From Rhodothermales bacterium (GTDB lineage: Bacteria; Bacteroidota; Rhodothermia; Rhodothermales; Bin80), in assembly GCA_951812585.1 (NCBI GenBank), contig OX638318.1, positions 2,978,810 to 3,042,809 on the forward strand: a stretch of 64,000 nucleotides of DNA, in the 5' to 3' direction. The notes beneath the pieces are model-generated. The model saw nothing but the letters and a program-made list of their open reading frames with translations, had not been told where the DNA came from and did not search any database. Shown one piece after another: positions 37,840 through 62,713 of this stretch. Position 1 is the stretch's first letter. Each line of letters begins with the position of its first letter. The translations under genes and the position numbers were made by a program.

Positions 37840-38508
37840 TCAGCTGTACGGGTAACGCCGGGTCAGTCGAGCCGGTGGAGCTCCCAGCCTGTAAAGGACC
37901 CACAAGGTGGCATTCAATAGCTGTTGCCGGAGGATGCCGTTTTGAAGTAGTCTTCTGGACGCGGTGGTGACGACCGGTCTCAGGAACCGGAAGCTACCGC
38001 GGCGGTGCAGCTGCCGCACCAGGTGCAGATCTTCGAAGATCGGGATGTCGGCGAATCCGCCAACCTCCCTCATCGTGCTGGCGCGCACAAAGACCGAACG
38101 GTCACCAAAGCAGAGCGAGGGCAGATTGCGGTTTGCGCACCATGCAAAGAGTCTGAGCAGCCAATGGTTGCGATCAAAGCGCATTCTGAACGTGCCCGAC
38201 TCCACCGCCCGGTTAGTCAGCACGCGCCGAATCTGCACCAGGGCATCCTTGGGCAGCAGCGTATCTGAATGCACAAACAGTAGCACGTCACCCGATGCTG
38301 CCCGCCATCCCGCGTTCATCTGCGATGCGCGCCCGCGCGGCGCTTCGAGGACGGTGGCATGCACGGCGGCACGTGCCAGTGTGTCGTCCGACGAGCGACC
38401 ATCCACAACCAGGATCTCCAGCGGTCCCGGTTGGCACGCGATGGAAGCCAGCGTCGCGCCAATGCTGGCCGACTCGTTGTAGACTGGAATAACGACGGAG
38501 ACCTTCAC
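37840..38508 (-). CDS. Glycosyltransferase family 2 protein
   Basis: [14 protein letters not shown] and [11 protein letters not shown] are GT2 N-terminal motifs. GTG start. Confidence 0.8.
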
Positions 38509-47804: not shown

Positions 47805-47857
47805 CGGCGCACTCCGTGACTCGAAACACTTAGACATCATTCTCATTGGATTATCAC

Positions 47858-49344: not shown

Positions 49345-49471
49345 AAACCCTTGGCGCAAACCGCAGTAAAAAGGTTTGCACACAATCGCCACGCCTATAC
49401 GCTCGGCTGCTACCGGACGCTAACACCTTCTTTCCGCGGATGCTCGGCATCTGCCCCTAATCGTCAGCCGC

Positions 49472-52400
49472 GTGCGATTTATTACGCTCTCCGCTCTCGC
49501 TGCCGCGTTTGCGCTTGCGGCCAACGCGCAGCAGGTCAGGTTTCGCCAGGTCGTACAGGAAGCGTCCCGGGCGGTCTATGAGCTCAACGCCGACTGGAGC
49601 AGTGCGCTAGGTGCCGAGGGGGCATCCCTGGATGCGGAAGCGCTGCGCCAACTGACGTACGGTGGACTGTTCGCGCGTACGGCAACCCTGCAGCTGCCCA
49701 CGCTGGAACAACCGGCAGTCCGGGTGCTTGTGGCGGACTACGATGAGATGCAGGCGCGTGTGCAGCCGGATGTGATCCATCCGCTGGCGCCACTGCCTGC
49801 GGAAGTGGTCGGTATCGGCCTGCATCGCAAGGTGCCTGCGGCCACGGTGGTGCTGCGCACCATGACGCTGGATGGCTCCGTACTACGGCGCTATCGGAGG
49901 CTGCTGGTGGAGGTGTCATGGGTGGATGGCCCAGTGGCCCGGCCTGCCAGCGATAACCCGCACCTTAGCGTGACAGAGAGCGTCCTCTCCACAGGTACGG
50001 TATTCAAAATTCCAATCACGCGCGAAGGCATCTACCAGATAGACCGGGCCTTCCTGGATGCACTGCCGGGGCTGAGCGTCAGTCCAGGTAGCATCGACCC
50101 GCGCGAAGTCAAGGTGTACGGCAATGGAGGCGCACCGGTACCAGCGCTCAACAGTGATCCGAGGCCTGCGGACCTTGTGGAAGTCCAGGTCTTTGTACAC
50201 GGCGGTGGCGACGGCTCGTTCGACAATGGTGATGCGGTATGGTTCTACGGGGCTGCCCCCCAGGGGTGGCATAGCGTTCACCTGCGCGACAGCCGAGGCG
50301 AGCTGCGCTTCGACAACGACGGCAACCCGATAGTAGAATGGCAGCACTACGTGCATCCGTTCTCCAACGAGAACTACTACTTCATCAAGATCGACGAACA
50401 GGAAAGTGCGGAGCTTGTTCAAGCTGCGTATCCCAATGTGGGTGGTGCCACTGCGTTGACGCAGATTGTTGGACGCCACTTTGTGGACTTTGATGAATTC
50501 ATGTGGGCCCAAGGCGGGAAGTCCGGCCATACATGGGTAAGCAGTCGCATCGAAGGCACCGTTCTCGCGGTTTTTGATGACCAGGTGTTGCCCGGACTTT
50601 TGGCTGGCAAAGTGACCTACAACGCCAGGCCGGCGATCCGAAGCAATCCGCCGGCTACCGTGCTGTTCATTTCTGATGGCGTCACGGTCGGCACGGCAAA
50701 CTTTGGCGCAACATCCGGCGATGCTACCGCGCCGATTGCGCGTACCGGCGTGGTAGCCTTTGATCAAGATGTGAGTGCCAATCAGCGTATATCCATGACC
50801 ATGGAGCTGGAAAGCAATGCGGGGGGTCCGCAGGCGGCGCTAGATTGGATTCGCGCGTACTATCCCATGGCGACAGCCCGGGATGAAGTGCCCGTGCGAT
50901 TGCATACGCCACTGATGACGGCAGGCACATTTACGATCACCCTGACGGGCTTCTCCAGTGAACCGTACGTTCTGGATGTCACCACGCCGGGAAGCTACGA
51001 GTGGCTCGGGATCGAACAGGCCGGCAGCGACTACCGCATACAGACAACGGCCAACGACATCCTGGTGCCGCGGGAGCTGATTGCCTTTGATGCGGGGCAG
51101 GTCACGTCCCTCGTTGCCGCAGACGTCTGTCCGGATGATCCCGGCTGCCGCGTGCCGCCCCAGAATCTGCACGGCATCACGACATATCCGGATTTTGTCA
51201 TTATCACCCCCAGTGTGTTTGCGCCGCAGGCAGCGGAACTGGCCGACATGCGGCGCAGTGAAGGCATGATCGTGGAAGTCGTGGACATCCTGCAGATCTA
51301 CAACGAGTTTTCGGGCGGACTTCAGGATCCGCGCGCGATCCGGGACTACCTGAAATTTCTTTATGATCGCGCACCCAGCGAATCAGAGCTGCTGCGGTAT
51401 GTGCTCCTCTTTGGCGATGGCCATTACAACTACCGCGCAATCAATCCGGAAAAGAACATCCTGCCGAACTGGATTCTGCCTTTCGAGACCGAGGAGTCGT
51501 TTATTCCCGAGATTTCGTACACGACCGATGACTACTTCGGCCTGTTGGACGACAACGAGGGGCTGTGGCCATTTACGCGCACGAGCTTCTACGGTGCGAG
51601 CGACTACCTGAACGAGCGCGTTGACCTCGGTATCGGTCGCCTTACGGTGATCACGCAGCAAGAGGCGCAAGCGGTGATCGACAAGATCAAGCACTACGAA
51701 AGCCCGCAGACGTTTGGTCCTTGGCGCAAGCGCTACGTATTCCTGGCCGACGACGGCCCGACCGGTCCTTCAGGCACGCAGGACGATAAGGACCTGCATA
51801 CCCAGAATACGGATGTTGTGGCGGAGGTAGTCGAGGAAGTCGCCCCCTATATTGACCAGAAGAAGATCTACGGCATCTCGTACCCGCGCGTGTTCAGGAA
51901 CGGGTGGAGGATTCCAAGGGCACGCGAGGATGTGCTGACGGCCTTGGCGGATGGCGTCTTAATGTTCAACTTCAGCGGTCACGGCGGGGAGAACGGTCTG
52001 GCGCAGGAAGACCTCTTCAATGCAGCGGATGCGACTTCGCTGACCAACTACGACATGCTCCCCATCTTCGTCACGGCCACATGCTCGTTTGGCCGGTGGG
52101 ACCAGTCCGATGCCCAAAGCGGGGCTGAGGAGCTGATGCTCAACAGCAGTGGCGGTGCCATCGCATTGCTGACAACCGTCCGCACGGTCTACACATCCGG
52201 CGATGCGACCAGCCTCAACGTCGGGCTCAATGTGGCACTGAACCAGGAACTCTTCCGGCGCGAGCCCGGCGGGCACATGCCACGCCTCGGAGACGCGCTT
52301 CGCCTGACCAAGAACACGCGGGTAGGCTACGAGGGTAACAACCGCAAATTCAACTTGCTGGGCGATCCCACCATGCGCGTGGGTGTTCCGGCGGCCCACG

Positions 52401-53491
52401 CCGTGGTCGAATCGGTCAATGGCGTGGACATAACCCAGGAAGCTACCGATCTAAAGGCGCTGGCACTGGTCACCATTGAAGGCCGCGTAGAGACGGCAGA
52501 CCAGCAGTTTGATGCTTCCTTTGATGGGACTGTCAGTCTGACCATCTTTGATGCGGAACGCCGCGTGATCATCCCGCCTGACATACGGCGGCATATGCCG
52601 AAGCCGTACTATCGCGTGCGGGAGGACCTCATCTGGGCGGGGCGCACCAGAGCCCGGTCCGGACGCTTCAAGGCCACTTTTGTCGTACCCAAGGACATTT
52701 CACACAGCAACAAGCCCGGCCGCATCTCGGTCTACGCAGCCAGCGGTCAAGAACATGCACAAGGATTCACGGAAAACATCATCGTGGGCGGCACCGCCAG
52801 CGAGATCCCGGACGACAATGATGGCCCGGTAATCGAGCTGTACCTGGGCGATGAGACGTTCGCTTCGGGCGGCCTTACGGCCAGTAGACCCGAAGTGCTG
52901 GCAAAGCTGTTCGATGAGAGCGGCATCAATACTGTCGGCGCTGGGGTCGGACACGAGATGCTGCTGATCATAGACGAGAACGAAGCCGATGCTGTCAATG
53001 TCGGTGCGCTCTATGAGAGCGAGGAAGATTCGTACCAGCGTGGCACCGTAGAATACCGCTTCAATGAATCCCTCTTGCCCGGCGCGCATACGATCACCAT
53101 GCGTGTGTGGGATGTGCTGAACAACTCCGCAACGAGCACACTGGAGTTTGTGGTCGCCGATGAGGCGCAGCTGCAGGTGCGTAATGTGCTGAACTACCCG
53201 AATCCCACCACGGGTCCGACACGCTTCGTCTTTGAGCATAACCAGCTGCCGGGCACGCTCGCGCGCGTGCAGGTCCGTATCTATTCGCTCAGCGGACGCC
53301 CCGTGCGGACGTTGGAAACAGAAGACGCACTGCCCGGCGGTGCCATGCAAATCATCTGGGACGGCACCGACGATGATTATGCCAGATTATCTCCAGGCGT
53401 GTATCTATACAGAGTGCGTGTGGAGGTTGATGCAGGGGACGGAGAGCGGCAGGTTTCGGAGGTCATTGAGAAGCTTGCCATCGTACGCTAA
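49472..53491 (+). CDS. porU: Type IX secretion system sortase PorU (gingipain-like C25 peptidase with its own CTD)
   Basis: Signal MRFITLSALAAAFALAANAQQ (GTG start). C25 catalytic His/Cys contexts FNFSGHGGENG and FVTATCSFGRWD. C-terminal CTD ...YPNPTTGPTRFVF...LSPGVYLYRVRV...KLAIVR. porV follows directly. Confidence 0.85.
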   Translation: MRFITLSALAAAFALAANAQQVRFRQVVQEASRAVYELNADWSSALGAEGASLDAEALRQLTYGGLFARTATLQLPTLEQPAVRVLVADYDEMQARVQPDVIHPLAPLPAEVVGIGLHRKVPAATVVLRTMTLDGSVLRRYRRLLVEVSWVDGPVARPASDNPHLSVTESVLSTGTVFKIPITREGIYQIDRAFLDALPGLSVSPGSIDPREVKVYGNGGAPVPALNSDPRPADLVEVQVFVHGGGDGSFDNGDAVWFYGAAPQGWHSVHLRDSRGELRFDNDGNPIVEWQHYVHPFSNENYYFIKIDEQESAELVQAAYPNVGGATALTQIVGRHFVDFDEFMWAQGGKSGHTWVSSRIEGTVLAVFDDQVLPGLLAGKVTYNARPAIRSNPPATVLFISDGVTVGTANFGATSGDATAPIARTGVVAFDQDVSANQRISMTMELESNAGGPQAALDWIRAYYPMATARDEVPVRLHTPLMTAGTFTITLTGFSSEPYVLDVTTPGSYEWLGIEQAGSDYRIQTTANDILVPRELIAFDAGQVTSLVAADVCPDDPGCRVPPQNLHGITTYPDFVIITPSVFAPQAAELADMRRSEGMIVEVVDILQIYNEFSGGLQDPRAIRDYLKFLYDRAPSESELLRYVLLFGDGHYNYRAINPEKNILPNWILPFETEESFIPEISYTTDDYFGLLDDNEGLWPFTRTSFYGASDYLNERVDLGIGRLTVITQQEAQAVIDKIKHYESPQTFGPWRKRYVFLADDGPTGPSGTQDDKDLHTQNTDVVAEVVEEVAPYIDQKKIYGISYPRVFRNGWRIPRAREDVLTALADGVLMFNFSGHGGENGLAQEDLFNAADATSLTNYDMLPIFVTATCSFGRWDQSDAQSGAEELMLNSSGGAIALLTTVRTVYTSGDATSLNVGLNVALNQELFRREPGGHMPRLGDALRLTKNTRVGYEGNNRKFNLLGDPTMRVGVPAAHAVVESVNGVDITQEATDLKALALVTIEGRVETADQQFDASFDGTVSLTIFDAERRVIIPPDIRRHMPKPYYRVREDLIWAGRTRARSGRFKATFVVPKDISHSNKPGRISVYAASGQEHAQGFTENIIVGGTASEIPDDNDGPVIELYLGDETFASGGLTASRPEVLAKLFDESGINTVGAGVGHEMLLIIDENEADAVNVGALYESEEDSYQRGTVEYRFNESLLPGAHTITMRVWDVLNNSATSTLEFVVADEAQLQVRNVLNYPNPTTGPTRFVFEHNQLPGTLARVQVRIYSLSGRPVRTLETEDALPGGAMQIIWDGTDDDYARLSPGVYLYRVRVEVDAGDGERQVSEVIEKLAIVR

Positions 53492-53512
53492 CAATCAAAA
53501 AAAAACACGGAA

Positions 53513-54703
53513 ATGCATTTTAGTTTTCGCAACCCTATGCGGGTCTCTGCCTTGACGCTGCTCTTGGCAGTCGGAACATGGTTTACGGCCCCAGCCCTGG
53601 CTCAGGTCGGTGGGACGGCCGTAGTGTTTCTGATGATCGAGCCGGACAGCCGCGCGGCCGGCATGGGCAACACGGGCGTGGCTATCGCCGACAACGCGAA
53701 TGCCATATTCTGGAACCCCGCAGGCCTGGCCGATCAGCGCGGCATGGAGTTCGGCATCACGCATTCCAACTGGCTCCCCGAATTCAACGCGGACCTCTAC
53801 TACGAGTACTTTGTTACCAAGCGCCATATCCGGGGTTTGGGGACGTTCGGCGGCCACCTGACCTACCTGTTTCTCGGGGAGCAGAACTATCGGGACGAAC
53901 AGAACAACGACCTGGGCACATTTAAGTCGTACGATATCGCCGCCGGGCTTTCGTGGGGGTTCAAGGCTACCAATAAGCTTTCCGTAGGGACCGGCATACG
54001 CCTGATCTATTCCAGCCTAGCCAACGTCAAAGTAGGAGCCCAACAGACCAATCCGGGCGTTTCCGCTGGCATGGATGTCGGCATGCTGTACAAGCTGCCA
54101 GAGTTCTGGCTGGGCCCGACCGCCGTGCAGTACAACGTCGGCTTGAACCTGGCCAACATGGGGCCCAAGATTCAGTATTCGGACAGCGAGCAGGGCGATC
54201 CCATACCAACCTACCTGCGGTTTGGGCATGCGATGACCTTTCAGTTTGACGATTACAACAAAATCACGCTAGCCAACGACTTTTCGAAGATGCTGGTGCG
54301 GCAGCGCATGACAGAAACCTGCATAGATCCCGCGGATACCGAAACCTGTACGGTGGGATACTATACGGATCCCTTCTACCAGGCCATTTTTTCGGCCTGG
54401 ACACCGATCTCAGTCAAAAGCGGTGCGGAGGACGACGAAGACCAGGTGCACGAGACGTTGTCCATTATTGACCAGCTGCTCATCGCTTCCGGCTTCGAAT
54501 ACTGGTACAAAAACCTGTTTGCTGCGCGCACTGGTTACTTTTACGAAAACCCATACAACGGAGACCGCCAGTTCTTGACCTTCGGCGCAGGCCTGCGTTA
54601 CAACATCGTGGGCGTGGACTTCTCCTATATATATGCGCTGGAAGAGAATCATCCACTCGCCAACACGATGCGGTTCTCGCTGCTGTTGAAACTTGGCCGC
54701 TAA
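53513..54703 (+). CDS. porV: T9SS outer-membrane channel/shuttle protein PorV (LptO)
   Basis: 396 aa with the signature EPDSRAAGMGNTGVAIADNANAIFWNPAGLA. It looks like a beta-barrel and sits immediately downstream of porU. Confidence 0.85.
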   Translation: MHFSFRNPMRVSALTLLLAVGTWFTAPALAQVGGTAVVFLMIEPDSRAAGMGNTGVAIADNANAIFWNPAGLADQRGMEFGITHSNWLPEFNADLYYEYFVTKRHIRGLGTFGGHLTYLFLGEQNYRDEQNNDLGTFKSYDIAAGLSWGFKATNKLSVGTGIRLIYSSLANVKVGAQQTNPGVSAGMDVGMLYKLPEFWLGPTAVQYNVGLNLANMGPKIQYSDSEQGDPIPTYLRFGHAMTFQFDDYNKITLANDFSKMLVRQRMTETCIDPADTETCTVGYYTDPFYQAIFSAWTPISVKSGAEDDEDQVHETLSIIDQLLIASGFEYWYKNLFAARTGYFYENPYNGDRQFLTFGAGLRYNIVGVDFSYIYALEENHPLANTMRFSLLLKLGR

Positions 54704-54711
54704 GGTGGCGC

Positions 54712-57633
54712 ATGCATATGGGCATTAGAGCCCTGTGCATAGTACTGTTGGCGAGCGGTGCAGCGCAAAGCGTCCCTGGGCAGACGCACTATGATGTTAT
54801 TGCGCTGCGGGTGGAGTTTCAGCCGGATACAACGCGCTACACCACCGGCGATGGCACCTTTGCAGGTCTGCACTGGGGCCTTGATCCCAAGGTGGATCCG
54901 TTGCCGCACGGCGCGCCCTACTTTGCGGCGCATCTTGCCTTTCTGGCAGACTATGTCGAGACCGTCTCCAGCGGGCATGCGACGTTGGCTGCCCATCTGG
55001 TGCCCCATGTTGTGCGCGTCGCGCACCAGATGGGAGCCTACAGTCCGGTTGGCCCAGAGGCGGACAGCGATGCGGAGCGCGTCAAGCTGGCACGCCTGGT
55101 CCAGGAGGCGTGGTCCCTAGCGGACACCAGCGGCTTCAGCTTCGCTGGTTTCACGCCTGAGCGCACTTTCTTCGTGCTCTTCCATGCGGGTATCGGTCGA
55201 GATGTGGAGCTGCTCGGCACAGTCTTGGAAAAGACGCCGCTGGACTTGCCATCGCTGTTCTTCAGCGAGGCTGCACTACAGCGGCTGGGCGTCACAGGAC
55301 TCGCCTACGGCGCCCTGCCCATCACGCATACCGCGATCATCCCGCGTACGGAGTCGCGCCTGGGCTACAACAGCATCACGCAGGATTCGCTGCTTTTGGA
55401 GCTCTCCATCAACGGCTTGCTGGCGTCCAGCTTTCTGAGCTATCTGGGCGTGCCCGATCTCTTCAACACGGCTACCGGCGCTTCCGCTATCGGTGGCTTT
55501 GGCGTTATGGATCCGCAGGGCATCTTTGCCTATGCGGGGCTGTTTCCGCCGGCACCCACGGCGTGGACGCGGGCGCGCCTGGGCTGGCATACACCCGTGC
55601 AGCTGTCTGGACAGGGCCCCGTGGAAGTCACACTGTCTACGGGTGAAATCGCGCGGGCGGGCATATCCGCGGCAGAGTACTTTCTGATTGAAAACCGCCA
55701 GCGTGACCCGGAGGGGGACGGGCTGGTGCTGCGCGTGTGGCAGGATGGCCAGGTGGTAGAGCAGCATGTGGAAGCCATCACCGATGACTTCAACCGCTTC
55801 AGCGTGGATGGCTTTGTGGGCGGCGTCGTGGTGGGCGTGGACCACTATGACTTTGCGCTGCCGGGCTGGGATGCGGACGGCAACCAGTATCAGGGCGGCA
55901 TGCTCATCTGGCATGTAGACGAGCAGGTGATCAAGACGGGCCAGATCAACGCCGATCCGCTTCGGCGCGGTGTGGCGCTCGAAGAAGCCGATGCGGCGCA
56001 AGACCTTGGCTTCGACAACACTGCCGGCGCGCCCTTCGACTTTTTCTTCGAGGGCAATCCTGTGCGCGCCGTTCTGCCGAGCGGCCGCGAAATCCGTTTC
56101 TACGAAAACCGTTTTGGACCTGCCACCACGCCATCGAGTGCTTCGAATGCCGGCGGCGAAAGTTTCATCGTGTTTGAGGACTTCTCTGCGCCAGGCCCCG
56201 AGATGCAATTCGTATACCGTATGGAGTCTGCGCACGGCATCAGCCTTGTTTCGGACATTGGCCTTGATGCCAGCATACCGCGCGGCAGCTCGGTTGGCGG
56301 CGGCAATGGATTCTCCTTTGTGTTCGAAAATAGCAGCACCCCGCGTGTGCATGTAGCGGCTGACGGGTCGGTGGCGACGGTACCATCACTGGTTCGCCCC
56401 CTGGCGGTGCAAAACACGCTCACAACTCTGGAAAGAGGCGCAACGGGCGCACTGGTACTGCGGACGTACGAAGTGCCTGGCCTGGCTGTGCGGCGCACCT
56501 ACACGCTGCCAGCGGCGCTGGCCGGTTACCGCATTAGGGGTCCACTTGTGGGCGCACAAGATGGCGCGGTGCATGTGCTGCTGGATAGTGCTGTGGAATC
56601 TGTCGTAGTAGTTTTGCGGGACGATGGCGCGCAAGCGGTGCACCCCTTACCGCCGGGCGGGCAGTCGCTGGCGGTGTCGCCCGAAGGTGCGGTCCTGGTG
56701 ACAGCGGCCACGTACGTGCGCATGATCACGGGCGAGGAACTCTGGACGTTTGACGAAGGTGGCCCCGCGGCCTATGCATCCAGTCGGGACGGCGTGTGGG
56801 GTGCCATGGTCCTGCCAGCGCGCAACCGTATCCGCATACTCGCCACCGGGCAGCGAACCTGGACCATTGATGTGGCCGCGTATGTCGGAGAGGTGCCGCT
56901 GGGCGAGTACGTCACGCTGGCTGATGTTGATGGCGACGATACGCCTGAGATCCTGTCCACCGCCGGGCCCTACCTGCTCGGCTTCACGCAGGGTGGTGCG
57001 ATGGCACCGGGCTTTCCGCTGCAGATGGATGTACCGCTAAGTACGCCGCCCCTGGCAGTCAGGCGATCATCAGGTCAGGCGGTAATAATCGTCGGGGCGC
57101 GCAGCGGTGTTGTCTACGCGGTGGAGCAGGGGCGTCCGATTCCTGGGTTTCCCCTGACGGCGGGGGCGAACCTGTCGGCAGCCCCCCGCCTATCGGAGGG
57201 GCACCTTGAGGTAGCGACCGGCGCGGGGCTGCTTCGCACGTATGCCATTGGAGAGACCGGAGCTGTGCTCTGGGGAGAGCGGCACGCGGGCCCAGGCAAT
57301 GCGGGGTTTGCTGCGCCTGTTGCGGGCGGCGAGCCGCCGAACGGCGAGCGGCTCCTGGTGGCAGGCGAATCTTACAACTGGCCCAATCCGATCCGCCGCG
57401 GCAACACCTTTGTGCGCCTGATGGCGACGGAAGACGCGACGGTGGAGCTCACAGTAGTGGATCTCGCCGGGACGGTGGTGCACGAAGCAGCCTTCGAGGT
57501 GCTTGGCGGCAGCCCCGCCGAATATCAGTGGCGTGCCACGGTCGCAAGCGGCCTGTACTATGCGCGCATACGAGCTACTGCCGCAGACGGACGCCAGGAC
57601 ACGCAACTGGTCAGGATGGCGGTGATACGATGA
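54712..57633 (+). CDS. T9SS cargo-type protein: M6 (InhA)-like domain with a degenerate active site, FG-GAP/propeller-like region and CTD
   Basis: M6-like blocks VIALRVEFQPD, FVLFHAGIGRD, EYFLIENRQ and GMLIWHVDE. The expected HExxHxLGLPDxYD position reads ASSFLSYLGVPDLFN. Also contains ADVDGDDTPEIL. C-terminal CTD NWPNPIRRGNTFVRL...SGLYYARI...RMAVIR. Confidence 0.7.
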   Translation: MHMGIRALCIVLLASGAAQSVPGQTHYDVIALRVEFQPDTTRYTTGDGTFAGLHWGLDPKVDPLPHGAPYFAAHLAFLADYVETVSSGHATLAAHLVPHVVRVAHQMGAYSPVGPEADSDAERVKLARLVQEAWSLADTSGFSFAGFTPERTFFVLFHAGIGRDVELLGTVLEKTPLDLPSLFFSEAALQRLGVTGLAYGALPITHTAIIPRTESRLGYNSITQDSLLLELSINGLLASSFLSYLGVPDLFNTATGASAIGGFGVMDPQGIFAYAGLFPPAPTAWTRARLGWHTPVQLSGQGPVEVTLSTGEIARAGISAAEYFLIENRQRDPEGDGLVLRVWQDGQVVEQHVEAITDDFNRFSVDGFVGGVVVGVDHYDFALPGWDADGNQYQGGMLIWHVDEQVIKTGQINADPLRRGVALEEADAAQDLGFDNTAGAPFDFFFEGNPVRAVLPSGREIRFYENRFGPATTPSSASNAGGESFIVFEDFSAPGPEMQFVYRMESAHGISLVSDIGLDASIPRGSSVGGGNGFSFVFENSSTPRVHVAADGSVATVPSLVRPLAVQNTLTTLERGATGALVLRTYEVPGLAVRRTYTLPAALAGYRIRGPLVGAQDGAVHVLLDSAVESVVVVLRDDGAQAVHPLPPGGQSLAVSPEGAVLVTAATYVRMITGEELWTFDEGGPAAYASSRDGVWGAMVLPARNRIRILATGQRTWTIDVAAYVGEVPLGEYVTLADVDGDDTPEILSTAGPYLLGFTQGGAMAPGFPLQMDVPLSTPPLAVRRSSGQAVIIVGARSGVVYAVEQGRPIPGFPLTAGANLSAAPRLSEGHLEVATGAGLLRTYAIGETGAVLWGERHAGPGNAGFAAPVAGGEPPNGERLLVAGESYNWPNPIRRGNTFVRLMATEDATVELTVVDLAGTVVHEAAFEVLGGSPAEYQWRATVASGLYYARIRATAADGRQDTQLVRMAVIR

Positions 57634-60600
57634 AGGTGGTGCGCATTGTTGTGATCGCGGCATTAGCCCTGGGCGTCCAATGCACCTGGGGTCAGGTATC
57701 GGTGTCCCTCATGGACTTTGCGCGGCCGGGCCTCGTGTGGCATGCCCTGGAAACGGAGCACTTCACGGTGCTGTATCACGAGGGCGGTTCGGGCGGCAGC
57801 AGCGCGCGCTCAGCGCACGAGGTCGCCCGCATTGCCGAAACGGTCTACGGCCCCATCACGGCGCTGTATGGCCACGAGCCCAGCGGCAAGGTCCACATCA
57901 TTCTGAAGGATTACGAAGACTACTCCAATGGAGCTGCGTACTTCTACGACAACAAGATTGAGATCTGGGCTCCGGCCTTGGATTCGCCCCTGCGCGGCGA
58001 CCATGCCTGGCTGGAGAATGTGGTAGCGCATGAGTTCACCCACATCGTGCAGGTGCAGGCGGCTATGAAGATGCCGCGGGCATTGCCTTTTGCCTACCTG
58101 CAGGTGTTGGATTATGAAAACATCAAGAGGCCCGATGTGCTCTACGGGTTTCCTGATGTGATTGTCAGCTATCCGATAGCAGGGCTGAGTAACCCAGCCT
58201 GGTTCGCAGAAGGCACGGCGCAGTATCAGCGTGCGTTCCTGTCTTATGATCGGTGGGATACGCACCGCGACATGATGCTGCGGACCCGGGTGCTGGCAGA
58301 TGAGGCGCTATCGCTTGCAGAGATGGGCAGCTTCTACTCCAAGAGCAGCTTGATGCGAGAAGGGGTATACAACCATGGCTATGCCTTTACACGGTATCTG
58401 GCCCGCACGTATGGCGAAGGGATCCTTGCTGATCTCAGCCGGGCGTTGGCTGCCTGGCGCCACTGGAATATGGAGCGGGCGCTCAGCGAAGTCACGGGCC
58501 AAAGCGCTGATGCAGTCTACGCAGGCTGGATGGACGGCCTGGAGGCTGCCTACGCGAGCAGCACCCGCACGCTGCGCAGCGCCCTCGTCCAGGGCGAATT
58601 GGTGGAAGCACAGGGCCATGCGAACTACTACCCGGCGTTTTCGCCCGACGGCACGCAGTTAGCATACGTCTCCAGTGGCAACAGGCACTACGGTCAGACC
58701 AGCCTCCATGTGCGCGATTTGGAAAGCGGTGACCAGGCGATCCTCGACCTGGGCACGGTTTCCTTGTCCGACTATACCTGTGCATGGGGGCACAGGCTCC
58801 GCCAGAATGTGGGCGGGGCGGTAACGTGGCGGCCTGATGGCGAGGCGCTGGTGTATGCGCGCCGCCGAGCGACGCGCGCCGGCTACTTGTATAGCGACCT
58901 GTACGAGATGACGCTGGACACGAAAAAGGAAGTTCGCCTGACACATAATGCGCGGGCATCGCACCCCGCGTTTGGGCCCGACGGGCATCGCATCGCGTTC
59001 GTTGCGCAGGTGGATGGCAGCACGAATCTGCGCATCTTCGACAAAGCCTCGGGCGCTATTTCTTCAGTCACGTCATTTGACGATGGCACGCAGGTCAGCG
59101 ATCCTGTATGGCACGGCGACTGGATCTATTTCGCACGCCGCGAGCCGGGTGCGCATGGGCGCGATGTGTGGCGTGCCAGGGCGGACGGCTCTGTCCTGGA
59201 AAGCGTGCTTTCCACGCCGGCAGATGAGCGCGCACCGGCATTCTCGGGGGACGTCTTGTACTACAGCAGCGATGCAACGGGCATCTACAACATCTATCGC
59301 CATGCGGGCGGTGCATCGGAGCAGCTGACACAAGTGCTGGGCGGCGCCTTCATGCCTGCGATACGGGCGGATGGGGCCATTGCCTATGCGCACTACCAGT
59401 GGGATGGCTACAAGATTGCGCTCTTGAGTCGACCCGCTCCGCTCCGGACATCCGTACAGTACCAAGTGCCGGAGATGCTGGGCAAGCCGATGGCGGAGCC
59501 GGACCACTCGCACCCCGTGGCAGCGGCCCTGATCGACACGACACGGCACTACCGGGCAGATTTCACGGAGTTCAGCTTTTTTCCGGTGCTGCGCCTGGAT
59601 CAGTATGTGTCGCGGCGGGCCGACCATCTGGACCGCAGGCTACCGCAGCGCAGTGCCGCGCGTACGCTCTTTCGCAACACCAAGCTTGGCTTCTATACCT
59701 CGAGCCGTGAAATGCTGGAGGGGATGAGCTTGTTTGCCGGGCTTCTGGTGGGACCTGCGTCACAGCCCGTCACCTCTTTCGGCGATGCCATCTCGCCATC
59801 CAACCTACTTTCGCTGGAGCGTGATGCCTTTCTGCTCTTTGACTACAAGCGCGGCCTGAATCTGGTGCCGACGCGCTGGTCTCCGCAGTTCTCGGTGGAA
59901 CTGTACAACATCCGCCGACGCGTAGAGAACGGGCTCTCGATAGAGGAATTTCCGTGTACGGCATGCTTTCCAGACACGACCCTGGTGGACCTCACGTACG
60001 CGCTCTGGGAGGGCAGTCTTTATGCCCGAAGCAAGGTGACGCGCAACGTAGTCATAGAGGCGGGGTATCGCTACAGCCCCTATCGCGTCACGACGGATCA
60101 GTTCTTCTCGCGCGAGCTGCTTACCTCCATTCCCAAGTCGGCGTCGCGTTATTTCATTGGCCGTACGCGCCTTTTGAAGGTGTATTTTGAGGCCCTGACC
60201 CCGCATCGCGAGGCAGATGTGCTGCCTCTTGGGATTACGGTCGATCTTGCGTACGAGCACGAAGCCGGTCGCTTGCTTGACCGGTTTGACATCCGCAATG
60301 GGCTACTGGTCCCGGTATACCAGAAGGAGCGCTTCCATCGCCTCAGGGTGGACGCCACGGCGGCCGCGCGGCTGCCGGGACGCGTGCGGGGCGCAGCGCA
60401 TGGGTTGGCTGTCCGCCTACGCGGGTCTGCGATTCTGGGAAAGAGCCTCGACAACTTCTACAACGACTATGTGGGCGGGCTCACGGCCGCGCGCGGGTAT
60501 CCGTTTTATGCCCTTGGCGGCAGCAAGACGTTGTGGTTCCAGGCCGCGTACACCATGCCGATCCTGCCTGACATCGGGATGCAGGTGCTCTCAGTGTATC

Positions 60601-60872
60601 TTGACAAGGCGTTCCTGCGGGTGTACACCGATGGGGCTGCTGTATGGCCTGGGTCGGGCGCATTGCGCCGGGACGCTGGTTTGGAGCTGCGCCTGAAGCT
60701 CGGTTCCTACTATCTGCTTCCCACCGCGCTGTTCGCCAGCGCAACGTACGGACTAGATGCGTTTGATTATGAGCTGGACGAAGGTTTTGTCACGCCTACG
60801 GGGGCGCGCACCGTCCGCTACGGGAAGGAGTGGCAGTGGCACTTTGGCGTCTTGTTCGGGTTTGATCTATAG
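57630..60872 (+). CDS. Multi-domain outer-membrane protein: MA-type HExxH peptidase domain, TolB/PD40 beta-propeller repeats and an Omp85-like C-terminal beta-barrel
   Basis: ATG 57630 overlaps the upstream TGA (ATGA). Signal MKVVRIVVIAALALGVQCTWGQ. HEFTH at 58029-58043 and a downstream WFAEGTAQY (gluzincin Glu). PD40-like repeats PAFSPDGTQLAYVS, WRPDGEALVY and PAFGPDGHRIAFVA. The C-terminal ~450 aa are beta-rich, with GGLTAARGYPF and a terminal ...FGVLFGFDL. Confidence 0.7.
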   Translation: MKVVRIVVIAALALGVQCTWGQVSVSLMDFARPGLVWHALETEHFTVLYHEGGSGGSSARSAHEVARIAETVYGPITALYGHEPSGKVHIILKDYEDYSNGAAYFYDNKIEIWAPALDSPLRGDHAWLENVVAHEFTHIVQVQAAMKMPRALPFAYLQVLDYENIKRPDVLYGFPDVIVSYPIAGLSNPAWFAEGTAQYQRAFLSYDRWDTHRDMMLRTRVLADEALSLAEMGSFYSKSSLMREGVYNHGYAFTRYLARTYGEGILADLSRALAAWRHWNMERALSEVTGQSADAVYAGWMDGLEAAYASSTRTLRSALVQGELVEAQGHANYYPAFSPDGTQLAYVSSGNRHYGQTSLHVRDLESGDQAILDLGTVSLSDYTCAWGHRLRQNVGGAVTWRPDGEALVYARRRATRAGYLYSDLYEMTLDTKKEVRLTHNARASHPAFGPDGHRIAFVAQVDGSTNLRIFDKASGAISSVTSFDDGTQVSDPVWHGDWIYFARREPGAHGRDVWRARADGSVLESVLSTPADERAPAFSGDVLYYSSDATGIYNIYRHAGGASEQLTQVLGGAFMPAIRADGAIAYAHYQWDGYKIALLSRPAPLRTSVQYQVPEMLGKPMAEPDHSHPVAAALIDTTRHYRADFTEFSFFPVLRLDQYVSRRADHLDRRLPQRSAARTLFRNTKLGFYTSSREMLEGMSLFAGLLVGPASQPVTSFGDAISPSNLLSLERDAFLLFDYKRGLNLVPTRWSPQFSVELYNIRRRVENGLSIEEFPCTACFPDTTLVDLTYALWEGSLYARSKVTRNVVIEAGYRYSPYRVTTDQFFSRELLTSIPKSASRYFIGRTRLLKVYFEALTPHREADVLPLGITVDLAYEHEAGRLLDRFDIRNGLLVPVYQKERFHRLRVDATAAARLPGRVRGAAHGLAVRLRGSAILGKSLDNFYNDYVGGLTAARGYPFYALGGSKTLWFQAAYTMPILPDIGMQVLSVYLDKAFLRVYTDGAAVWPGSGALRRDAGLELRLKLGSYYLLPTALFASATYGLDAFDYELDEGFVTPTGARTVRYGKEWQWHFGVLFGFDL

Positions 60873-60892
60873 CATACTGCCGCCTCGTTGCC

Positions 60893-61522
60893 ATGACAGG
60901 ACTCGTTGTTGTTGCCGCCTGCATGATTGCCATCGGCATTGTCTTTCTGTGGCTTCTGCTGCATCGCAATGCTGGGCTCCGGCCCCGGGGCGGACTGGAA
61001 TGGACGGGCACCATCATGTCGGGCCTCCTCATCGTGTGCGCAGGATTTCTTATGGCGCTGGCCTTGGCTGGCGAAGAGCAGGAAGATACGGCCCGGCGTG
61101 GTGTTGGCCGGCCTGCGAGCGACATCGCCTTCAAGCTGCTTTCCAACGATGCGCCGCAGCGGCTGTCGGACTACAGCGGCCAGGTCGTGCTGCTCAACTT
61201 CTGGGCCACCTGGTGCCAGCCCTGCATCACCGAGCTACCCGAGCTAGATAAGCTCCACGATGATTATGCGGAGCGGGGCCTGGCTGTTGTTACGCTTTCC
61301 GATGAACCACGGGACGTGTTGGATATGTTCGAAGATCTGTGGCCCAAGCAGACAGTCTCGGGGTATGTTGCGCTGGATGCGGTGCCCGAGCCGTACTACA
61401 GCGAGCTCGTCCTGGGTCGGCCCATCTCGTATGTGATTGACCGCGAAGGCGTCGTGCGCGAGTTCATTGTGGGAGCAGGCAATTACGACATGTTTGAGCG
61501 CTTCATCCGCCCCTATATCTGA
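60893..61522 (+). CDS. TlpA-family thiol:disulfide oxidoreductase (membrane-anchored thioredoxin-like)
   Basis: N-terminal TM segments and the LLNFWATWCQPC CxxC motif. Confidence 0.85.
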   Translation: MTGLVVVAACMIAIGIVFLWLLLHRNAGLRPRGGLEWTGTIMSGLLIVCAGFLMALALAGEEQEDTARRGVGRPASDIAFKLLSNDAPQRLSDYSGQVVLLNFWATWCQPCITELPELDKLHDDYAERGLAVVTLSDEPRDVLDMFEDLWPKQTVSGYVALDAVPEPYYSELVLGRPISYVIDREGVVREFIVGAGNYDMFERFIRPYI

Positions 61523-62538
61523 TGATGGTTCGCCGAGTGCTGCTTTTTGCTAGGTGGGTGCTGCCCTGTGCTGTCCTTATCCTGAAGACACCCGTGGCCA
61601 CAGCGCAGGTGCGCCCTGCATCACCGCCGGCTGCGTATGCGCCAGCGGCGCTGCGAGCGGCGTTGGCCTTTGGACCAGTATCAGGCCCGATGTACAAGGG
61701 CCAGGCGGCACGGAGCGTGCCCCTTGCCTTCGGGCTGTCCGCACTCGTGCCAGGAGCAGGACAGGTCTATAACAGGGAATGGGTCAAGGCTGCGGCTGCC
61801 GTTGCGATCGAGCTGGGCGTGCTCTGGGGATGGTCCTCCTGGCGTGAGAAGGGTGCGGAGGGTCGCGACGCGTACCAGGCTATGGCCCACATGCACTGGA
61901 GCCCGGTGCGATATTCGCTGTGGCTGAATGACTACACCGTCTACTTGAACACCTTGCCGGGCGGGCCGCCCGTTGACGCGGAGCCGATCGCGATCGACCC
62001 TGCGCTGTTCAGTCTGGACTTCTCGCAACCGGGTGGTTGGAGCACGGTGCAGCAGTTAGCCGTGCGGCGCTTGATTCTGGACATACGCGCGCTGGAAACA
62101 CGCGTATACCACCCGCAGACTGGCGCGCGCTTTTCGCACCAGCTTCCCTTCTTTGCCGAGCAGCAGTACTACGAGCTCATAGGCAAGTACTTCCAGTTCG
62201 CTCCCGGATGGGATGACTACTATGCGCTGACCAGGGATGGACGGGCCACCTGGATTGATGCGGATGGCAATTTCATTGACTCTATTGATCCGGAGGCGAC
62301 GGCTGCGGACGGCACCAAGGCGTTTGCATCTGATCGCTTCTTCCACTATGCAGCGCGTCATGGCGAGGCCAACGACTACTTCCGGCGTGCATCCCGGGTC
62401 ACGATACTGCTGTTTGCCAACCATCTCCTGACTGCTGTGGAAGCTGCGATCTCAGCCAAGCTCCAAAATGATCGGCTGCGTGTGCGCGTCGGCCAGCATC
62501 AAGCAGAGCCGGCGCTGGTGCTGCAGCTCAGCTTCTAG
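61522..62538 (+). CDS. DUF5683-like protein
   Basis: SALVPGAGQVYNREWVKAAA matches the PG.GQ.YN..YWK core remembered for DUF5683. Its ATG overlaps the TlpA stop by 1 nt. Confidence 0.6.
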   Translation: MMVRRVLLFARWVLPCAVLILKTPVATAQVRPASPPAAYAPAALRAALAFGPVSGPMYKGQAARSVPLAFGLSALVPGAGQVYNREWVKAAAAVAIELGVLWGWSSWREKGAEGRDAYQAMAHMHWSPVRYSLWLNDYTVYLNTLPGGPPVDAEPIAIDPALFSLDFSQPGGWSTVQQLAVRRLILDIRALETRVYHPQTGARFSHQLPFFAEQQYYELIGKYFQFAPGWDDYYALTRDGRATWIDADGNFIDSIDPEATAADGTKAFASDRFFHYAARHGEANDYFRRASRVTILLFANHLLTAVEAAISAKLQNDRLRVRVGQHQAEPALVLQLSF

Positions 62539-62713
62539 TCGGCATGTCCCGTGCCAACGGGGCGGACACGCGCATGCCTGCCCTTGCGGCGCGTGATCCA
62601 GGCAGCGCAGCTTTAAAGCGGCATACCCCGATCCCAGGGGGCCAAGCCCCTGACGGATGCCCACATTGGGAGCTCCGTAGTATATTGCGGCCGAACAAAT
62701 TCTTATCGAGTCT

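What the first reader, a model, noticed from the sequence alone, without database searches (positions are those of the whole stretch)
49472..62538. Extended porU-porV gene cluster carrying four additional tightly linked envelope genes: candidate lineage-specific T9SS accessory module
The spacing is porU, 21 nt, porV, 8 nt, the 973-aa CTD protein, a 4-nt overlap (ATGA), the 1080-aa peptidase/PD40/barrel protein, 20 nt, the TlpA-like thioredoxin, a 1-nt overlap and the DUF5683 protein. The porU-porV pairing is established. The four genes behind them are not components of the described T9SS core or of the PorU/PorV/PorZ/PorQ attachment complex. The third gene encodes a CTD-bearing, propeller-containing, apparently non-catalytic protein. 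That is the general description of PorZ, so it may be a PorZ-like partner encoded in cis. The fourth adds an outer-membrane barrel with an intact metallopeptidase. The fifth could supply disulfide reduction or oxidation in the periplasm. Together these genes look like a co-expressed cargo-processing or attachment module that has not, to my knowledge, been described.
Basis: partly seen in the sequence, partly recalled or inferred. Interest (0 to 1): 0.7.

Follow-up and report, generated by a model that had tools for sequence, protein, structure and literature searches.

The report
Conserved porU-porV operon with extra genes
In three deep-branching relatives of the Bacteroidetes, the two genes that finish protein export by the type IX secretion system always travel with three uncharacterised envelope genes, so these are good candidates for missing parts of that machine, though no function has been tested.

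Summary
Six intact + strand ORFs (49472-62538) are separated by 21, 8, -4, 20 and -1 nt.

Gene identities:
- Genes 1 and 2 are canonical PorU and PorV.
- g3 belongs to the curated NCBIfam family NF052323 (T9SS-dependent M6-like inactivated metalloprotease). It has a dead M6-like domain, an 8-blade BamB-like propeller and a type A CTD.
- g4 has an intact HExxH...E gluzincin, a TolB-like propeller and a 16-strand barrel carrying Omp85 signature motifs. This architecture was catalogued in 2014 as "WD40-like Omp85".
- g5 is a membrane-anchored TlpA/ResA-like thioredoxin.
- g6 is a divergent DUF5683 protein.

In 80 loci from other species, the order porU-porV-g3-g4-g6 is the same in Rhodothermales, Balneolales and Ignavibacteriales. 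All five genes are present in 48 of 50 loci with enough sequence on both sides. The flanking genes differ between lineages. g5 occurs only in Rhodothermales.

I found no paper linking g3, g4 or g6 to the T9SS.

Best reading: a lineage-specific extension of the T9SS cargo-processing and attachment station. g3 is not a PorZ homologue. A direct T9SS role is inferred from gene linkage only. Verdict: new variant of a known kind, interest about 0.6.

The parts
49472..53491 (+). porU, T9SS sortase (1339 aa, GTG start). C25 peptidase domain at residues 575-970, His motif SGHGG at 51974-51988, Cys motif TATCSFG at 52073-52093, C-terminal Ig-like/CTD region.
   Evidence: NF033707 951 bits against a cutoff of 420; Peptidase_C25 4.6e-99. 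GHG and Cys motifs present in 56 of 56 orthologues. Motif coordinates.
53513..54703 (+). porV, T9SS outer-membrane shuttle barrel (396 aa).
   Evidence: NF033710 278 bits against a cutoff of 250; Pfam PorV 8.5e-34. Lies immediately upstream of g3 in 62 of 62 loci with room.
54712..57633 (+). g3: T9SS-dependent M6-like inactivated metalloprotease (973 aa). Signal peptide; M6-like domain 54784-56226; degenerate zinc site SSFLSYLGVPD at 55426-55458; 8-blade propeller 56239-57291; type A CTD 57373-57630.
   Evidence: NF052323 660 bits against a cutoff of 600. 0 of 73 orthologues have HExxH. AF2 model pLDDT 78, with the propeller region near 90. Foldseek matches BamB and designed 8/9-blade propellers. 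TIGR04183 is hit in 14 of 21 family members.
57630..60872 (+). g4: three-part outer-membrane protein (1080 aa). Gluzincin peptidase domain 57699-58580 with HEFTH at 58029-58043; TolB-like PD40 propeller 58587-59429; about 16-strand barrel 59574-60854 with CTAC at 59955-59966 and ARGYPF at 60489-60506.
   Evidence: H134, E135, H138 and E194 are invariant in 61 of 61 orthologues. AF2 pLDDT 76.5, pTM 0.75. TolB Foldseek E 2e-11. hhalign of the barrel profile against a BamA+TamA profile scores 39.2, P 2.3e-4, against controls of 12-22. The same architecture is listed as WD40-like Omp85.
60893..61522 (+). g5: TlpA/ResA-like thiol-disulfide oxidoreductase (209 aa) with two N-terminal hydrophobic segments and WCQPC (CxxC at 61214-61225). 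Found in Rhodothermales only.
   Evidence: AhpC-TSA 2e-16, Redoxin 7e-12, ResA subfamily 2e-20. Sequence read. Present in 29 Rhodothermales-type loci and 0 others.
61522..62538 (+). g6: divergent DUF5683 envelope protein (338 aa). Signal peptide; PGAGQVYN at 61750-61773; EQQYYELIGKY at 62158-62190; NHxxxAxxAA helix; C-terminal Phe.
   Evidence: DUF5683 32.4 bits against a cutoff of 26.7, covering only 51 of 151 profile positions. Orthologues score 21-27 bits. Conserved motifs. Follows g4 (or g5) in 55 of 56 loci with room. No PDB relative.

Best explanation
The six genes form one co-directional, probably co-translated unit. Its five-gene core (porU, porV, g3, g4, g6) is an ancient conserved block in Rhodothermales, Balneolales and Ignavibacteriales. 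[quoted passage not shown]

Proposed roles:
- PorV collects CTD-bearing cargo at the translocon, and PorU cleaves the CTD. This is established for the families.
- g3 is itself exported through the T9SS by its type A CTD. I propose it stays at the cell surface as a non-catalytic adaptor. Its dead M6-like protease fold and BamB-like propeller would bind a peptide or glycan ligand for PorU, a role analogous to PorZ but not homologous to it.
- g4 is an Omp85-type barrel carrying an active gluzincin gated by a TolB-like propeller. I propose it cuts peptides or unfolded chains at the outer membrane, for example cleaved CTDs left on PorV or stalled cargo.
- g6 is an envelope protein of unknown role, possibly a scaffold.
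- In Rhodothermales, the added TlpA-like g5 would supply reducing power to periplasmic cysteines, such as the PorU catalytic Cys or the conserved CxxC of g4.

Shown here: gene order, its conservation, domain content, and which catalytic residues are intact or lost. Inferred: co-transcription, physical association and every functional step for g3-g6.
For: - Junctions of 21, 8, -4, 20 and -1 nt; similar tight spacing is the median across 80 loci.
- In loci found through g3, porV is upstream in 62 of 62, porU in 61 of 62, g4 downstream in 56 of 56 and g6 in 55 of 56; all five genes are present in 48 of 50.
- Only these five ORF families are shared between Rhodothermales-type and Balneolales/Ignavibacteria-type loci. 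The flanks are unrelated housekeeping genes in each lineage.
- The neighbours in Ignavibacterium album and Balneola are canonical PorU and PorV, not the PorU2/PorV2 paralogues.
- g3 depends on the T9SS through its CTD.
- g4 is conserved about as well as PorV and better than PorU (0.61 vs 0.66 and 0.37 bits per residue across phyla). Its zinc site is invariant.
- In two Ignavibacteriales loci an extra ~1.5-kb gene sits between g3 and g4. The one I scanned (L056) encodes a C25 peptidase with a T9SS CTD, so this interval attracts T9SS genes.
- The published P. gingivalis model leaves release of the cleaved CTD and recycling of PorV unexplained mechanistically (PMC5562754).
Against: - There are no expression, interaction or phenotype data. 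The link is guilt by association only.
- Loci were retrieved with g3 as bait, so the survey shows that g3 is always next to porV. It does not show that every porU-porV pair in these lineages has g3-g4-g6.
- The orientation of the g4 peptidase (periplasm or surface) is unknown.
- The WD40-like Omp85 family also occurs in bacteria I would not expect to have a T9SS, such as Anaeromyxobacter and Sorangium, judging from the accession prefixes in the 2014 tables. Rhodothermus marinus has several paralogues. The family therefore has a T9SS-independent basal function.
- g5 is dispensable in two of the three lineages.
- The g4 CxxC is absent in Ignavibacteria and does not track g5 strictly.
- One genome (Fodinibius, L067) keeps porV-g3-g4-g6 without an adjacent porU.
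Confidence: 0.5

Rival explanations
1. g4, g6 (and g5) form an independent outer-membrane maintenance or quality-control module: an Omp85-family protease that trims or degrades periplasmic or outer-membrane proteins in general. g3 is just one abundant T9SS cargo. They share an operon with porU-porV only because envelope genes are co-regulated, not because they act on T9SS substrates.
For: - The same three-part architecture (gluzincin + TolB-like propeller + Omp85 barrel) was catalogued in diverse phyla, with several paralogues per genome. The authors suggested periplasmic quality control for the related Omp85-metalloprotease class (PMC4104836).
- The g4 propeller is TolB-like, and Tol-Pal proteins work in envelope integrity.
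- g5 resembles general periplasmic reductases.
- No known T9SS model hits g4 or g6 significantly; PorE is hit only at E 2e-4 through the propeller.
Against: - Co-regulation alone rarely preserves exact order and strand across phylum-level divergence while both flanks turn over.
- The barrel of this orthologue group is found only in this architecture and in few clusters: 179 at 50% identity among 1.84 billion representatives. It is next to g3 and porV in every locus examined.
- g3 carries the T9SS sorting signal and separates porV from g4, with overlapping stop and start codons.
Confidence: 0.3
2. This is the strict form of the first reader's idea. g3 and the g4 barrel are the functional replacements of PorZ and PorQ. 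g3 delivers the anchor glycolipid to PorU and is tethered by its uncleaved CTD to the g4 barrel, giving a PorU:PorV plus g3:g4 attachment complex.
For: - The parallel is formal. In P. gingivalis two CTD-bearing surface proteins (PorU, PorZ) are each held by an outer-membrane barrel (PorV, PorQ) (PMC5562754). Here the operon encodes two CTD proteins and two barrels in the order U-V-g3-g4.
- g3 has a propeller and a conserved CTD.
- g3 and g4 overlap by 4 nt, which suggests matched stoichiometry.
Against: - g3 shares neither architecture nor detectable sequence or fold similarity with PorZ.
- PorQ is a PorV-family, FadL-like barrel, whereas the g4 barrel is Omp85-like and does not resemble PorV (score 16.7).
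- The idea gives no role to an invariant active metallopeptidase.
- I could not test whether these genomes lack PorZ and PorQ.
Confidence: 0.12
3. The adjacency carries no functional meaning: it is inherited local synteny among related genomes, or an artefact of the ORF calls.
For: All loci were retrieved with g3 as the query, and many are MAGs with uncertain binning.
Against: - The ORFs are long and intact. They have strong family matches and conserved catalytic or motif residues.
- The block is kept in cultured genomes: Roseithermus sacchariphilus, Ignavibacterium album, Melioribacter roseus and Fodinibius.
- Everything outside the five genes differs between lineages.
Confidence: 0.03

Closest known systems
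PorU/PorV/PorZ/PorQ attachment complex of Porphyromonas gingivalis (PMC5562754; PorZ structure PMC5121618)
   Same: Orthologous PorU sortase and PorV shuttle. A further CTD-bearing, propeller-containing, non-catalytic surface-protein candidate (g3) and a further outer-membrane barrel (g4) are encoded alongside them.
   Different: g3 has an M6-like pseudo-protease domain plus one 8-blade propeller, not two 7-blade propellers, and does not hit the PorZ model. The g4 barrel is Omp85-like, not PorV/PorQ-like, and carries an active gluzincin and a TolB-like propeller. Here all the genes lie in one operon. Nothing is known about the anchor molecule.
NCBIfam NF052323, T9SS-dependent M6-like inactivated metalloprotease
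   Same: g3 scores above the curated cutoff (660 vs 600). Orthologues in Ignavibacterium and Balneola score 1174-1225 bits over the full length. The HExxH motif is lost and a type A CTD is present.
   Different: The family name describes a cargo. As far as I could find, no function or link to porU-porV synteny has been published.
WD40-like Omp85 subfamily (Heinz and Lithgow 2014, PMC4104836)
   Same: The same three parts: an aminopeptidase-like gluzincin, a TolB-like propeller and an Omp85 barrel. Listed members carry Rhodothermus marinus and Salinibacter ruber accessions. g4 has an L6 ARGY motif and a strand-13 DxG motif aligned to those of BamA.
   Different: That paper makes no link to the T9SS and proposes a BamA-BamB-like platform. 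The g4 barrel is too divergent for Pfam Bac_surface_Ag. I could not confirm that a listed accession is the direct orthologue of g4.
PorE (PG1058), a T9SS periplasmic protein with a TolB-like propeller (PMC5053529)
   Same: An outer-membrane-tethered protein with a TolB-like PD40 propeller associated with the T9SS. There is a weak hit of g4 to the PorE model through the propeller (E 2e-4).
   Different: PorE has TPR, CRD and OmpA_C peptidoglycan-binding domains and is a lipoprotein. g4 has a peptidase and an integral barrel instead.
PlpD, type Vd secretion (patatin passenger + POTRA + Omp85 barrel)
   Same: An N-terminal enzyme domain fused to a C-terminal 16-strand Omp85-type barrel. This raises the possibility that the enzyme part is exported to the surface.
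   Different: g4 has no POTRA domain: only a linker of about 48 residues lies between the propeller and the barrel. It carries a metallopeptidase plus propeller rather than a lipase.
TlpA/ResA/CcmG periplasmic thiol-disulfide oxidoreductases
   Same: g5 has the thioredoxin fold, a WCxxC motif and an N-terminal membrane anchor.
   Different: It is not in a cytochrome c maturation or Sco context. It is embedded in the porU-porV cluster, and only in Rhodothermales.

Membership tests
PorU (T9SS sortase, NF033707 / Peptidase_C25) | Full-length match to the equivalog model above its cutoff | tested here: met
   951 bits against a cutoff of 420, residues 171-1337. PorU2 model only 93 bits against 450.
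PorU (T9SS sortase, NF033707 / Peptidase_C25) | C25 catalytic His and Cys motifs | tested here: met
   SGHGG (residue 835) and TATCSFG (residue 868) are present. These motifs occur in 56 of 56 orthologues. Assignment of the catalytic residues rests on family knowledge.
PorV (NF033710) | Match to the PorV equivalog above its cutoff, rather than to PorQ or PorV2 | tested here: met
   278 bits against a cutoff of 250. PorQ 75 bits against 220; PorV2 36 bits against 325.
NF052323 T9SS-dependent M6-like inactivated metalloprotease (g3) | Score above the curated cutoff | tested here: met
   660.4 bits against a cutoff of 600. All 21 aligned relatives match.
NF052323 T9SS-dependent M6-like inactivated metalloprotease (g3) | Loss of the HExxH zinc site | tested here: met
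   0 of 73 orthologues contain HExxH. The site before GxPD reads AS[FIV]xS[YH]L.
NF052323 T9SS-dependent M6-like inactivated metalloprotease (g3) | Type A C-terminal sorting domain | tested here: met
   TIGR04183 is hit in 14 of 21 members. The window copy is sub-threshold (11.8 bits) but keeps the family's invariant CTD columns and a modelled beta-sandwich at residues 888-971.
PorZ | Two tandem seven-blade propellers followed by a CTD (PMC5121618) | tested here: not met
   The g3 model has an M6-like domain plus one propeller. The best fold matches are 8/9-blade propellers and BamB, and no PorZ entry is in the top 50.
PorZ | Sequence match to NF052228 (T9SS_PorZ) | tested here: not met
   No hit for g3. 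Only 1 of 21 relatives hits, at E 0.0016. The PDB profile search finds no PorZ.
PorZ | CTD retained after export and binding to a PorQ-type barrel | not testable with these tools
   Needs proteomics or pull-downs.
Gluzincin / Peptidase MA (g4 N-terminal domain) | HExxH plus a downstream Glu zinc ligand | tested here: met
   H134, E135, H138 and E194 are invariant in 61 of 61. Identifying E194 as the third ligand is inference from the AEGxAxY context.
Gluzincin / Peptidase MA (g4 N-terminal domain) | Pfam Peptidase_MA_2 above the gathering score | tested here: inconclusive
   21.7-26.1 bits against a cutoff of 32.4 for the window protein. A distant orthologue reaches 33.3 bits.
Omp85 superfamily (g4 barrel) | 16-strand C-terminal barrel | tested here: met
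   The AF2 model shows about 16 long strands between residues 649 and 1075. The count comes from DSSP output, not from inspecting coordinates.
Omp85 superfamily (g4 barrel) | Signature motifs (V/I)RG(Y/F) on loop L6 and (F/G)xDxG on strand 13 (PMC4490367) | tested here: met
   ARGY at residues 954-957 lies between predicted strands 11 and 12. DxG(N)AW lies on predicted strand 13. hhalign aligns these to BamA VRGF(660) and FWDMG(738). R955 is R or K, Y957 is invariant and D1001 is D or E across 61 sequences.
Omp85 superfamily (g4 barrel) | Significant sequence match to Bac_surface_Ag or solved Omp85 barrels | tested here: inconclusive
   Pfam gives no hit and the PDB profile search gives none. 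hhalign against a BamA+TamA profile scores 39.2, probability 44%, P 2.3e-4. Controls score 12-22, and BamA against TamA as single sequences scores 28.
Omp85 superfamily (g4 barrel) | Periplasmic POTRA domain(s) | tested here: not met
   Only a linker of about 48 residues with no beta-alpha-alpha-beta-beta unit lies between the propeller and the barrel. Omp85 subfamilies without POTRA are recognised (PMC4104836).
TolB-like PD40 propeller (g4 middle domain) | PD40 repeats and a TolB-like fold | tested here: met
   PD40 1.5e-19. PDB profile hits to TolB at E 6e-16. Foldseek TolB E 2e-11.
TlpA/ResA-like thioredoxin (g5) | Thioredoxin fold with a CxxC motif and a membrane anchor | tested here: met
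   AhpC-TSA 60.5 bits and Redoxin 45.8 bits, both above cutoffs. WCQPC at residue 108. Two N-terminal hydrophobic stretches were read. Equivalog cutoffs for ResA and TlpA are not reached.
DUF5683 (g6) | Pfam PF18935 above the gathering score over the domain | tested here: inconclusive
   32.4 bits against a cutoff of 26.7, but only profile positions 8-58 of 151 are matched. Ignavibacteria and Balneola orthologues score 21-27 bits or give no hit.

The most novel reading that the evidence does not exclude
[quoted passage not shown] In this reading an Omp85-family barrel carrying an active metallopeptidase works alongside the PorU sortase and PorV shuttle, for example clearing cleaved CTDs so that PorV can recycle. 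A T9SS-exported pseudo-protease replaces PorZ as the sortase's adaptor. That would tie the Omp85 superfamily to T9SS cargo processing and reveal an alternative, possibly ancestral, attachment complex.
Probability: 0.3. Interest if true: 0.8.

Novelty: new variant of a known kind. Interest (0 to 1): 0.6.

Why it matters
T9SS mechanism has been worked out almost entirely in Porphyromonas and Flavobacterium. How cargo is released from PorV, what happens to the cleaved CTD, and what replaces PorZ, PorQ and A-LPS outside the Bacteroidia are all open questions. A five-gene block that has stayed with porU-porV across phylum-level divergence supplies three concrete candidate components. One of them is a rare fusion of an Omp85 barrel with an active protease. 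The block occurs in cultured carriers (Ignavibacterium album, Melioribacter roseus, Roseithermus sacchariphilus), so the idea can be tested directly. If the genes prove unrelated to secretion, the block would still give the first genomic context for the WD40-like Omp85 subfamily and for a DUF5683 protein.

Tried and rejected
- Sigma-70 promoter and intrinsic-terminator scan of 48000-64000: counts equal the shuffled expectation, so it is uninformative.
- Pfam on the isolated g4 barrel: no hit.
- PDB profile searches with the g4 barrel, g3 and g6 alignments: nothing beyond generic propellers.
- First hhalign of a Rhodothermales-only barrel profile against single-sequence BamA: negative. A signal appeared only with a broader 31-sequence profile and a BamA+TamA profile.
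- Foldseek with the whole g4 model: dominated by the propeller, so the barrel could not be classified this way.
- Barrel-only phmmer against 1.84 billion representatives: found only proteins of the same architecture and no classical Omp85.
- Idea that g5 co-occurs with the g4 cysteines: rejected as a strict rule. The CxxC is also present in Balneolales, which lack g5. C384 is present in L015 and L016, which also lack g5.
- Idea that the NF052323 neighbours might be the PorU2/PorV2 paralogues (suggested by consecutive NCBIfam accession numbers): rejected, because the neighbours are canonical PorU and PorV.
- The look-up of encoding contigs for the identical g6 protein: not on record.
- Literature searches for the cluster, DUF5683 and T9SS in these lineages: no relevant paper.

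Full report
**1. Observation**

The window carries six intact + strand ORFs:
- 49472-53491 (1339 aa)
- 53513-54703 (396 aa)
- 54712-57633 (973 aa)
- 57630-60872 (1080 aa from the ATG)
- 60893-61522 (209 aa)
- 61522-62538 (338 aa)

Reading the junctions confirms spacings of 21 nt, 8 nt, a 4-nt ATGA overlap, 20 nt and a 1-nt overlap. The block is bounded by a 127-nt gap after a metallo-beta-lactamase-fold gene. Downstream, a 178-nt gap precedes a sodium:dicarboxylate symporter gene. A consensus promoter and terminator scan gave only background counts and says nothing either way. G+C content is even across the region.

An identical g6 protein is held under WGS prefix LXNJ01. LXNJ00000000 is cited in a Mediterranean sponge metagenome study (PMC5099237). 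The best-matching genomes are Rhodothermales. The source is therefore most likely a sponge-associated member of the Rhodothermales (inference).

**2. What each gene is**

*Genes 1 and 2.* Gene 1 is canonical PorU: NF033707 at 951 bits against a cutoff of 420, and Peptidase_C25 at 4.6e-99. Gene 2 is canonical PorV: NF033710 at 278 bits against a cutoff of 250. The recently defined PorU2 and PorV2 models score far below their cutoffs.

*g3.* Gene 3 passes the curated NCBIfam equivalog NF052323, "T9SS-dependent M6-like inactivated metalloprotease" (660 bits against a cutoff of 600).
- None of 73 orthologues contains HExxH. Where M6 peptidases have HExxHxxGxPD, this family reads AS[FIV]xS[YH]LG[VL]PD.
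- Foldseek places the middle domain with 8/9-blade propellers and BamB. PorZ is not among the top 50 matches.
- The type A CTD model TIGR04183 is hit in 14 of 21 family members. The PorZ model NF052228 is not hit by g3.

*g4.* Gene 4 has an N-terminal signal peptide and an HEFTH motif. H134, E135, H138 and E194 are invariant in all 61 orthologues, including those from Ignavibacteria, so the gluzincin site is intact.
- The AF2 model (pLDDT 76.5, pTM 0.75) gives a peptidase domain (to residue 317) and a propeller (320-600). An all-beta C-terminal part (649-1075) has about 16 long strands.
- The propeller is TolB-like.

*The g4 barrel.*
- It has no Pfam hit and no PDB sequence relative.
- A phmmer search with the barrel alone against 1.84 billion representatives found only 179 clusters. 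The full-length hits are about 1000-1200 aa with the barrel at the C-terminus. The eight such hits I scanned keep the peptidase, PD40 or both.
- A 31-sequence barrel profile aligned to a BamA+TamA barrel profile scores 39.2 (P 2.3e-4, probability 44%). Shuffled BamA scores 12-22, reversed BamA 15 and PorV 17. BamA against TamA as single sequences scores 28.
- The alignment places g4 FYNDYVGGLTAARGYP on BamA FYENFYAGGSSTVRGF. It places the family's DxGNAW on BamA FWDMGTVW.
- These are the two Omp85 signature motifs, (V/I)RG(Y/F) on loop L6 and (F/G)xDxG on strand 13 (PMC4490367). In the model they fall between predicted strands 11 and 12, and on strand 13.
- Heinz and Lithgow (2014, PMC4104836) had already listed a "WD40-like" Omp85 subfamily. 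Its members have a BamA/TamA-like barrel, a TolB-like propeller and an aminopeptidase-like domain. They include Rhodothermus marinus and Salinibacter ruber accessions.
- I conclude that g4 is a divergent, POTRA-less Omp85-type protein of that architecture. I could not verify direct orthology to a listed accession.

*g5.* Gene 5 is a TlpA/ResA-like thioredoxin with WCQPC and two N-terminal hydrophobic segments.

*g6.* Gene 6 has a signal peptide and passes DUF5683 (32.4 bits against 26.7), but only over the first third of the model. Orthologues elsewhere are at or below threshold. Its conserved features are:
- PGxGQxYN
- EQQYYELIGKYxQFxPGW
- NHxxSAxDAA
- a C-terminal Phe in 39 of 58 sequences

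It has no PDB relative.

**3. Synteny**

A scan of one genome per species with a g3 alignment found relatives in at least 522 species, and the best 80 loci were kept. They come from Rhodothermales, Balneolaceae and Ignavibacteriales/Melioribacteraceae. They include Roseithermus sacchariphilus, Fodinibius sp., Ignavibacterium album and Melioribacter roseus. A few MAGs carry other labels, which I take to be binning or labelling noise.

tblastn with the six window proteins shows the same order and strand everywhere. Among loci with enough sequence:
- porV is upstream of g3 in 62 of 62.
- porU is upstream in 61 of 62.
- g4 is downstream in 56 of 56.
- g6 is downstream in 55 of 56.
- All five genes are present in 48 of 50.

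There are two exceptions. In a Fodinibius genome other genes precede porV. In one MAG an unrelated 616-aa ORF follows g4.

Median junctions are short in all lineages. Unsupervised clustering of all ORFs of at least 150 aa shows that only these five families are shared by both lineage groups, at fixed offsets. g5 is in 29 Rhodothermales-type loci and in no others.

The flanks are unrelated housekeeping genes that differ by lineage:
- endonuclease III, an HD protein, Der GTPase and Upp in Melioribacteraceae
- thiolase, a PASTA protein, Rpe and PhoH in Balneolales
- a Lon-N protein, an MBL-fold protein and a symporter in Rhodothermales

The neighbours of g3 in Ignavibacterium and Balneola are canonical PorU (over 1000 bits) and PorV.

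Across phyla, g4 is conserved about as well as PorV and better than PorU (0.61, 0.66 and 0.37 bits per residue). g3 resembles PorU in this respect (0.39), and g6 is the least conserved (0.30).

Two Ignavibacteriales loci carry an extra ~1.5-kb gene between g3 and g4. The one I scanned (L056) encodes a 471-aa C25 peptidase with a T9SS CTD whose stop overlaps the g4 start. In another locus an IS element sits between g4 and g5.

**4. Mechanism**

*Shown.* A tightly packed unit whose five-gene core has been kept together through very deep divergence; a T9SS-dependent pseudo-protease; and an outer-membrane barrel protein with an invariant metallopeptidase site.

*Established for the families.* PorV shuttles CTD cargo and PorU cleaves the CTD. 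In P. gingivalis, PorZ and PorQ complete the attachment complex, and the cleaved CTD must then be released to recycle PorV (PMC5562754).

*Inferred.*
- g3 is exported and acts at the surface as a non-catalytic adaptor for PorU.
- The g4 propeller-gated peptidase degrades peptides or unfolded chains at the outer membrane, for example cleaved CTDs or stalled cargo.
- g6 is a scaffold or has some other unknown role.
- g5 supplies reducing power in Rhodothermales.

With an even strand number, the N-terminal domains of g4 would by convention face the periplasm, and the conserved CTAC would then sit in an extracellular loop. A PlpD-like export of the enzyme part cannot be excluded.

The CxxC is present in Rhodothermales and Balneolales but not in Ignavibacteria, and it does not track g5 strictly.

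**5. Rivals**

- The main rival holds that g4 and g6 (with g5) are a general envelope quality-control module that merely shares an operon with porU-porV. The wide distribution and paralogy of WD40-like Omp85 proteins favour this. The invariant position next to porV and g3, amid changing flanks, argues against it.
- The strict PorZ/PorQ-replacement idea fits the two-CTD-proteins, two-barrels pattern. It is not backed by any homology and leaves the active peptidase unexplained.
- Chance synteny is effectively excluded.

**6. Comparison and novelty**

PorU and PorV are known. g3 has a curated family name but no published function that I could find. The g4 architecture was catalogued in 2014 without any T9SS link. 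DUF5683 has no functional literature: the only paper that mentions it concerns nematode receptors. Six literature searches found no description of this operon.

I rate it a new variant of a known kind: a T9SS processing and attachment module with different accessory parts.

Limits:
- All loci were found through g3.
- I could not test whether Bacteroidia lack the module.
- I could not test whether these lineages lack PorZ and PorQ.
- Nothing here is experimental.

Noticed in passing
L056:12933-14348 (+); same position in L066: Two Ignavibacteriales loci carry an extra ~1.5-kb gene between g3 and g4. The one scanned (L056) encodes a 471-aa C25 peptidase with a Por_Secre_tail CTD, and its stop overlaps the g4 start. 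It may be a second, small PorU/gingipain-like enzyme recruited into the operon.
   Followed up: partly
window 59955-59966 (g4 CTAC) and residue C384: A CxxC in a predicted barrel loop of g4 is conserved in Rhodothermales and Balneolales and absent in Ignavibacteria. A third Cys (C384) is mostly limited to Rhodothermales. The cysteines do not track the thioredoxin g5 strictly.
   Followed up: partly
L067:3561-8534 (Fodinibius sp. SL11): porU is not next to porV here. Four unrelated ORFs of about 380-440 aa precede porV, while porV-g3-g4-g6 stays intact. This suggests the porV-g3-g4-g6 link is tighter than the porU link.
   Followed up: partly
L005:16413-17507 and L005:18753-20651: An IS-type DDE transposase plus two ORFs with no Pfam hit are inserted between g4 and g5 in one Rhodothermales genome, so the cluster tolerates insertions there. 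L019 has an unrelated 616-aa ORF with no Pfam hit after g4.
   Followed up: partly
PMC4104836 supplementary tables (WD40-like Omp85 column): Four accessions with the Rhodothermus marinus prefix (D0MCT8, D0MEQ5, D0MFK1, D0MJF6) are listed in the WD40-like Omp85 class. Such genomes may therefore hold several paralogues, only one of which would be the porUV-linked copy.
   Followed up: no
window 46494-48032 (-) and 42999-44345 (+): Two large ORFs (512 and 448 aa) have no Pfam or NCBIfam hit. The first belongs to a family conserved upstream of the cluster on the opposite strand in 24 Rhodothermales loci. The second ends in ...NTRF, like an outer-membrane protein.
   Followed up: partly
window 26390-28717 (-): A 775-aa ORF fuses an AmpH/class C beta-lactamase-like penicillin-binding domain (residues about 25-350) with a D-Ala-D-Ala dipeptidase (DdpX/VanX-like, residues about 593-771).
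   Followed up: no
window 49356-49379: A 7-bp inverted repeat, GCAAACC (10 nt) GGTTTGC, lies in the 127-nt gap between the MBL-fold gene and porU. It has no T-run after it and could be chance, a terminator-like hairpin or an operator.
   Followed up: no
window 36491-37903 (-): A 470-aa ORF gives a sub-threshold match to the choice-of-anchor B family (TIGR04312, 55.7 bits against a cutoff of 100). It may be another surface-anchored protein.
   Followed up: no
L018 list: L040, L055, L060, L041, L062, L063, L078: Several loci carrying the cluster come from MAGs labelled Actinomyces, Acidobacteriota, Alphaproteobacteria or Chitinophagales. Their proteins resemble the Balneolales or Ignavibacteria versions, so the labels are probably binning or classification errors.
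   Followed up: no
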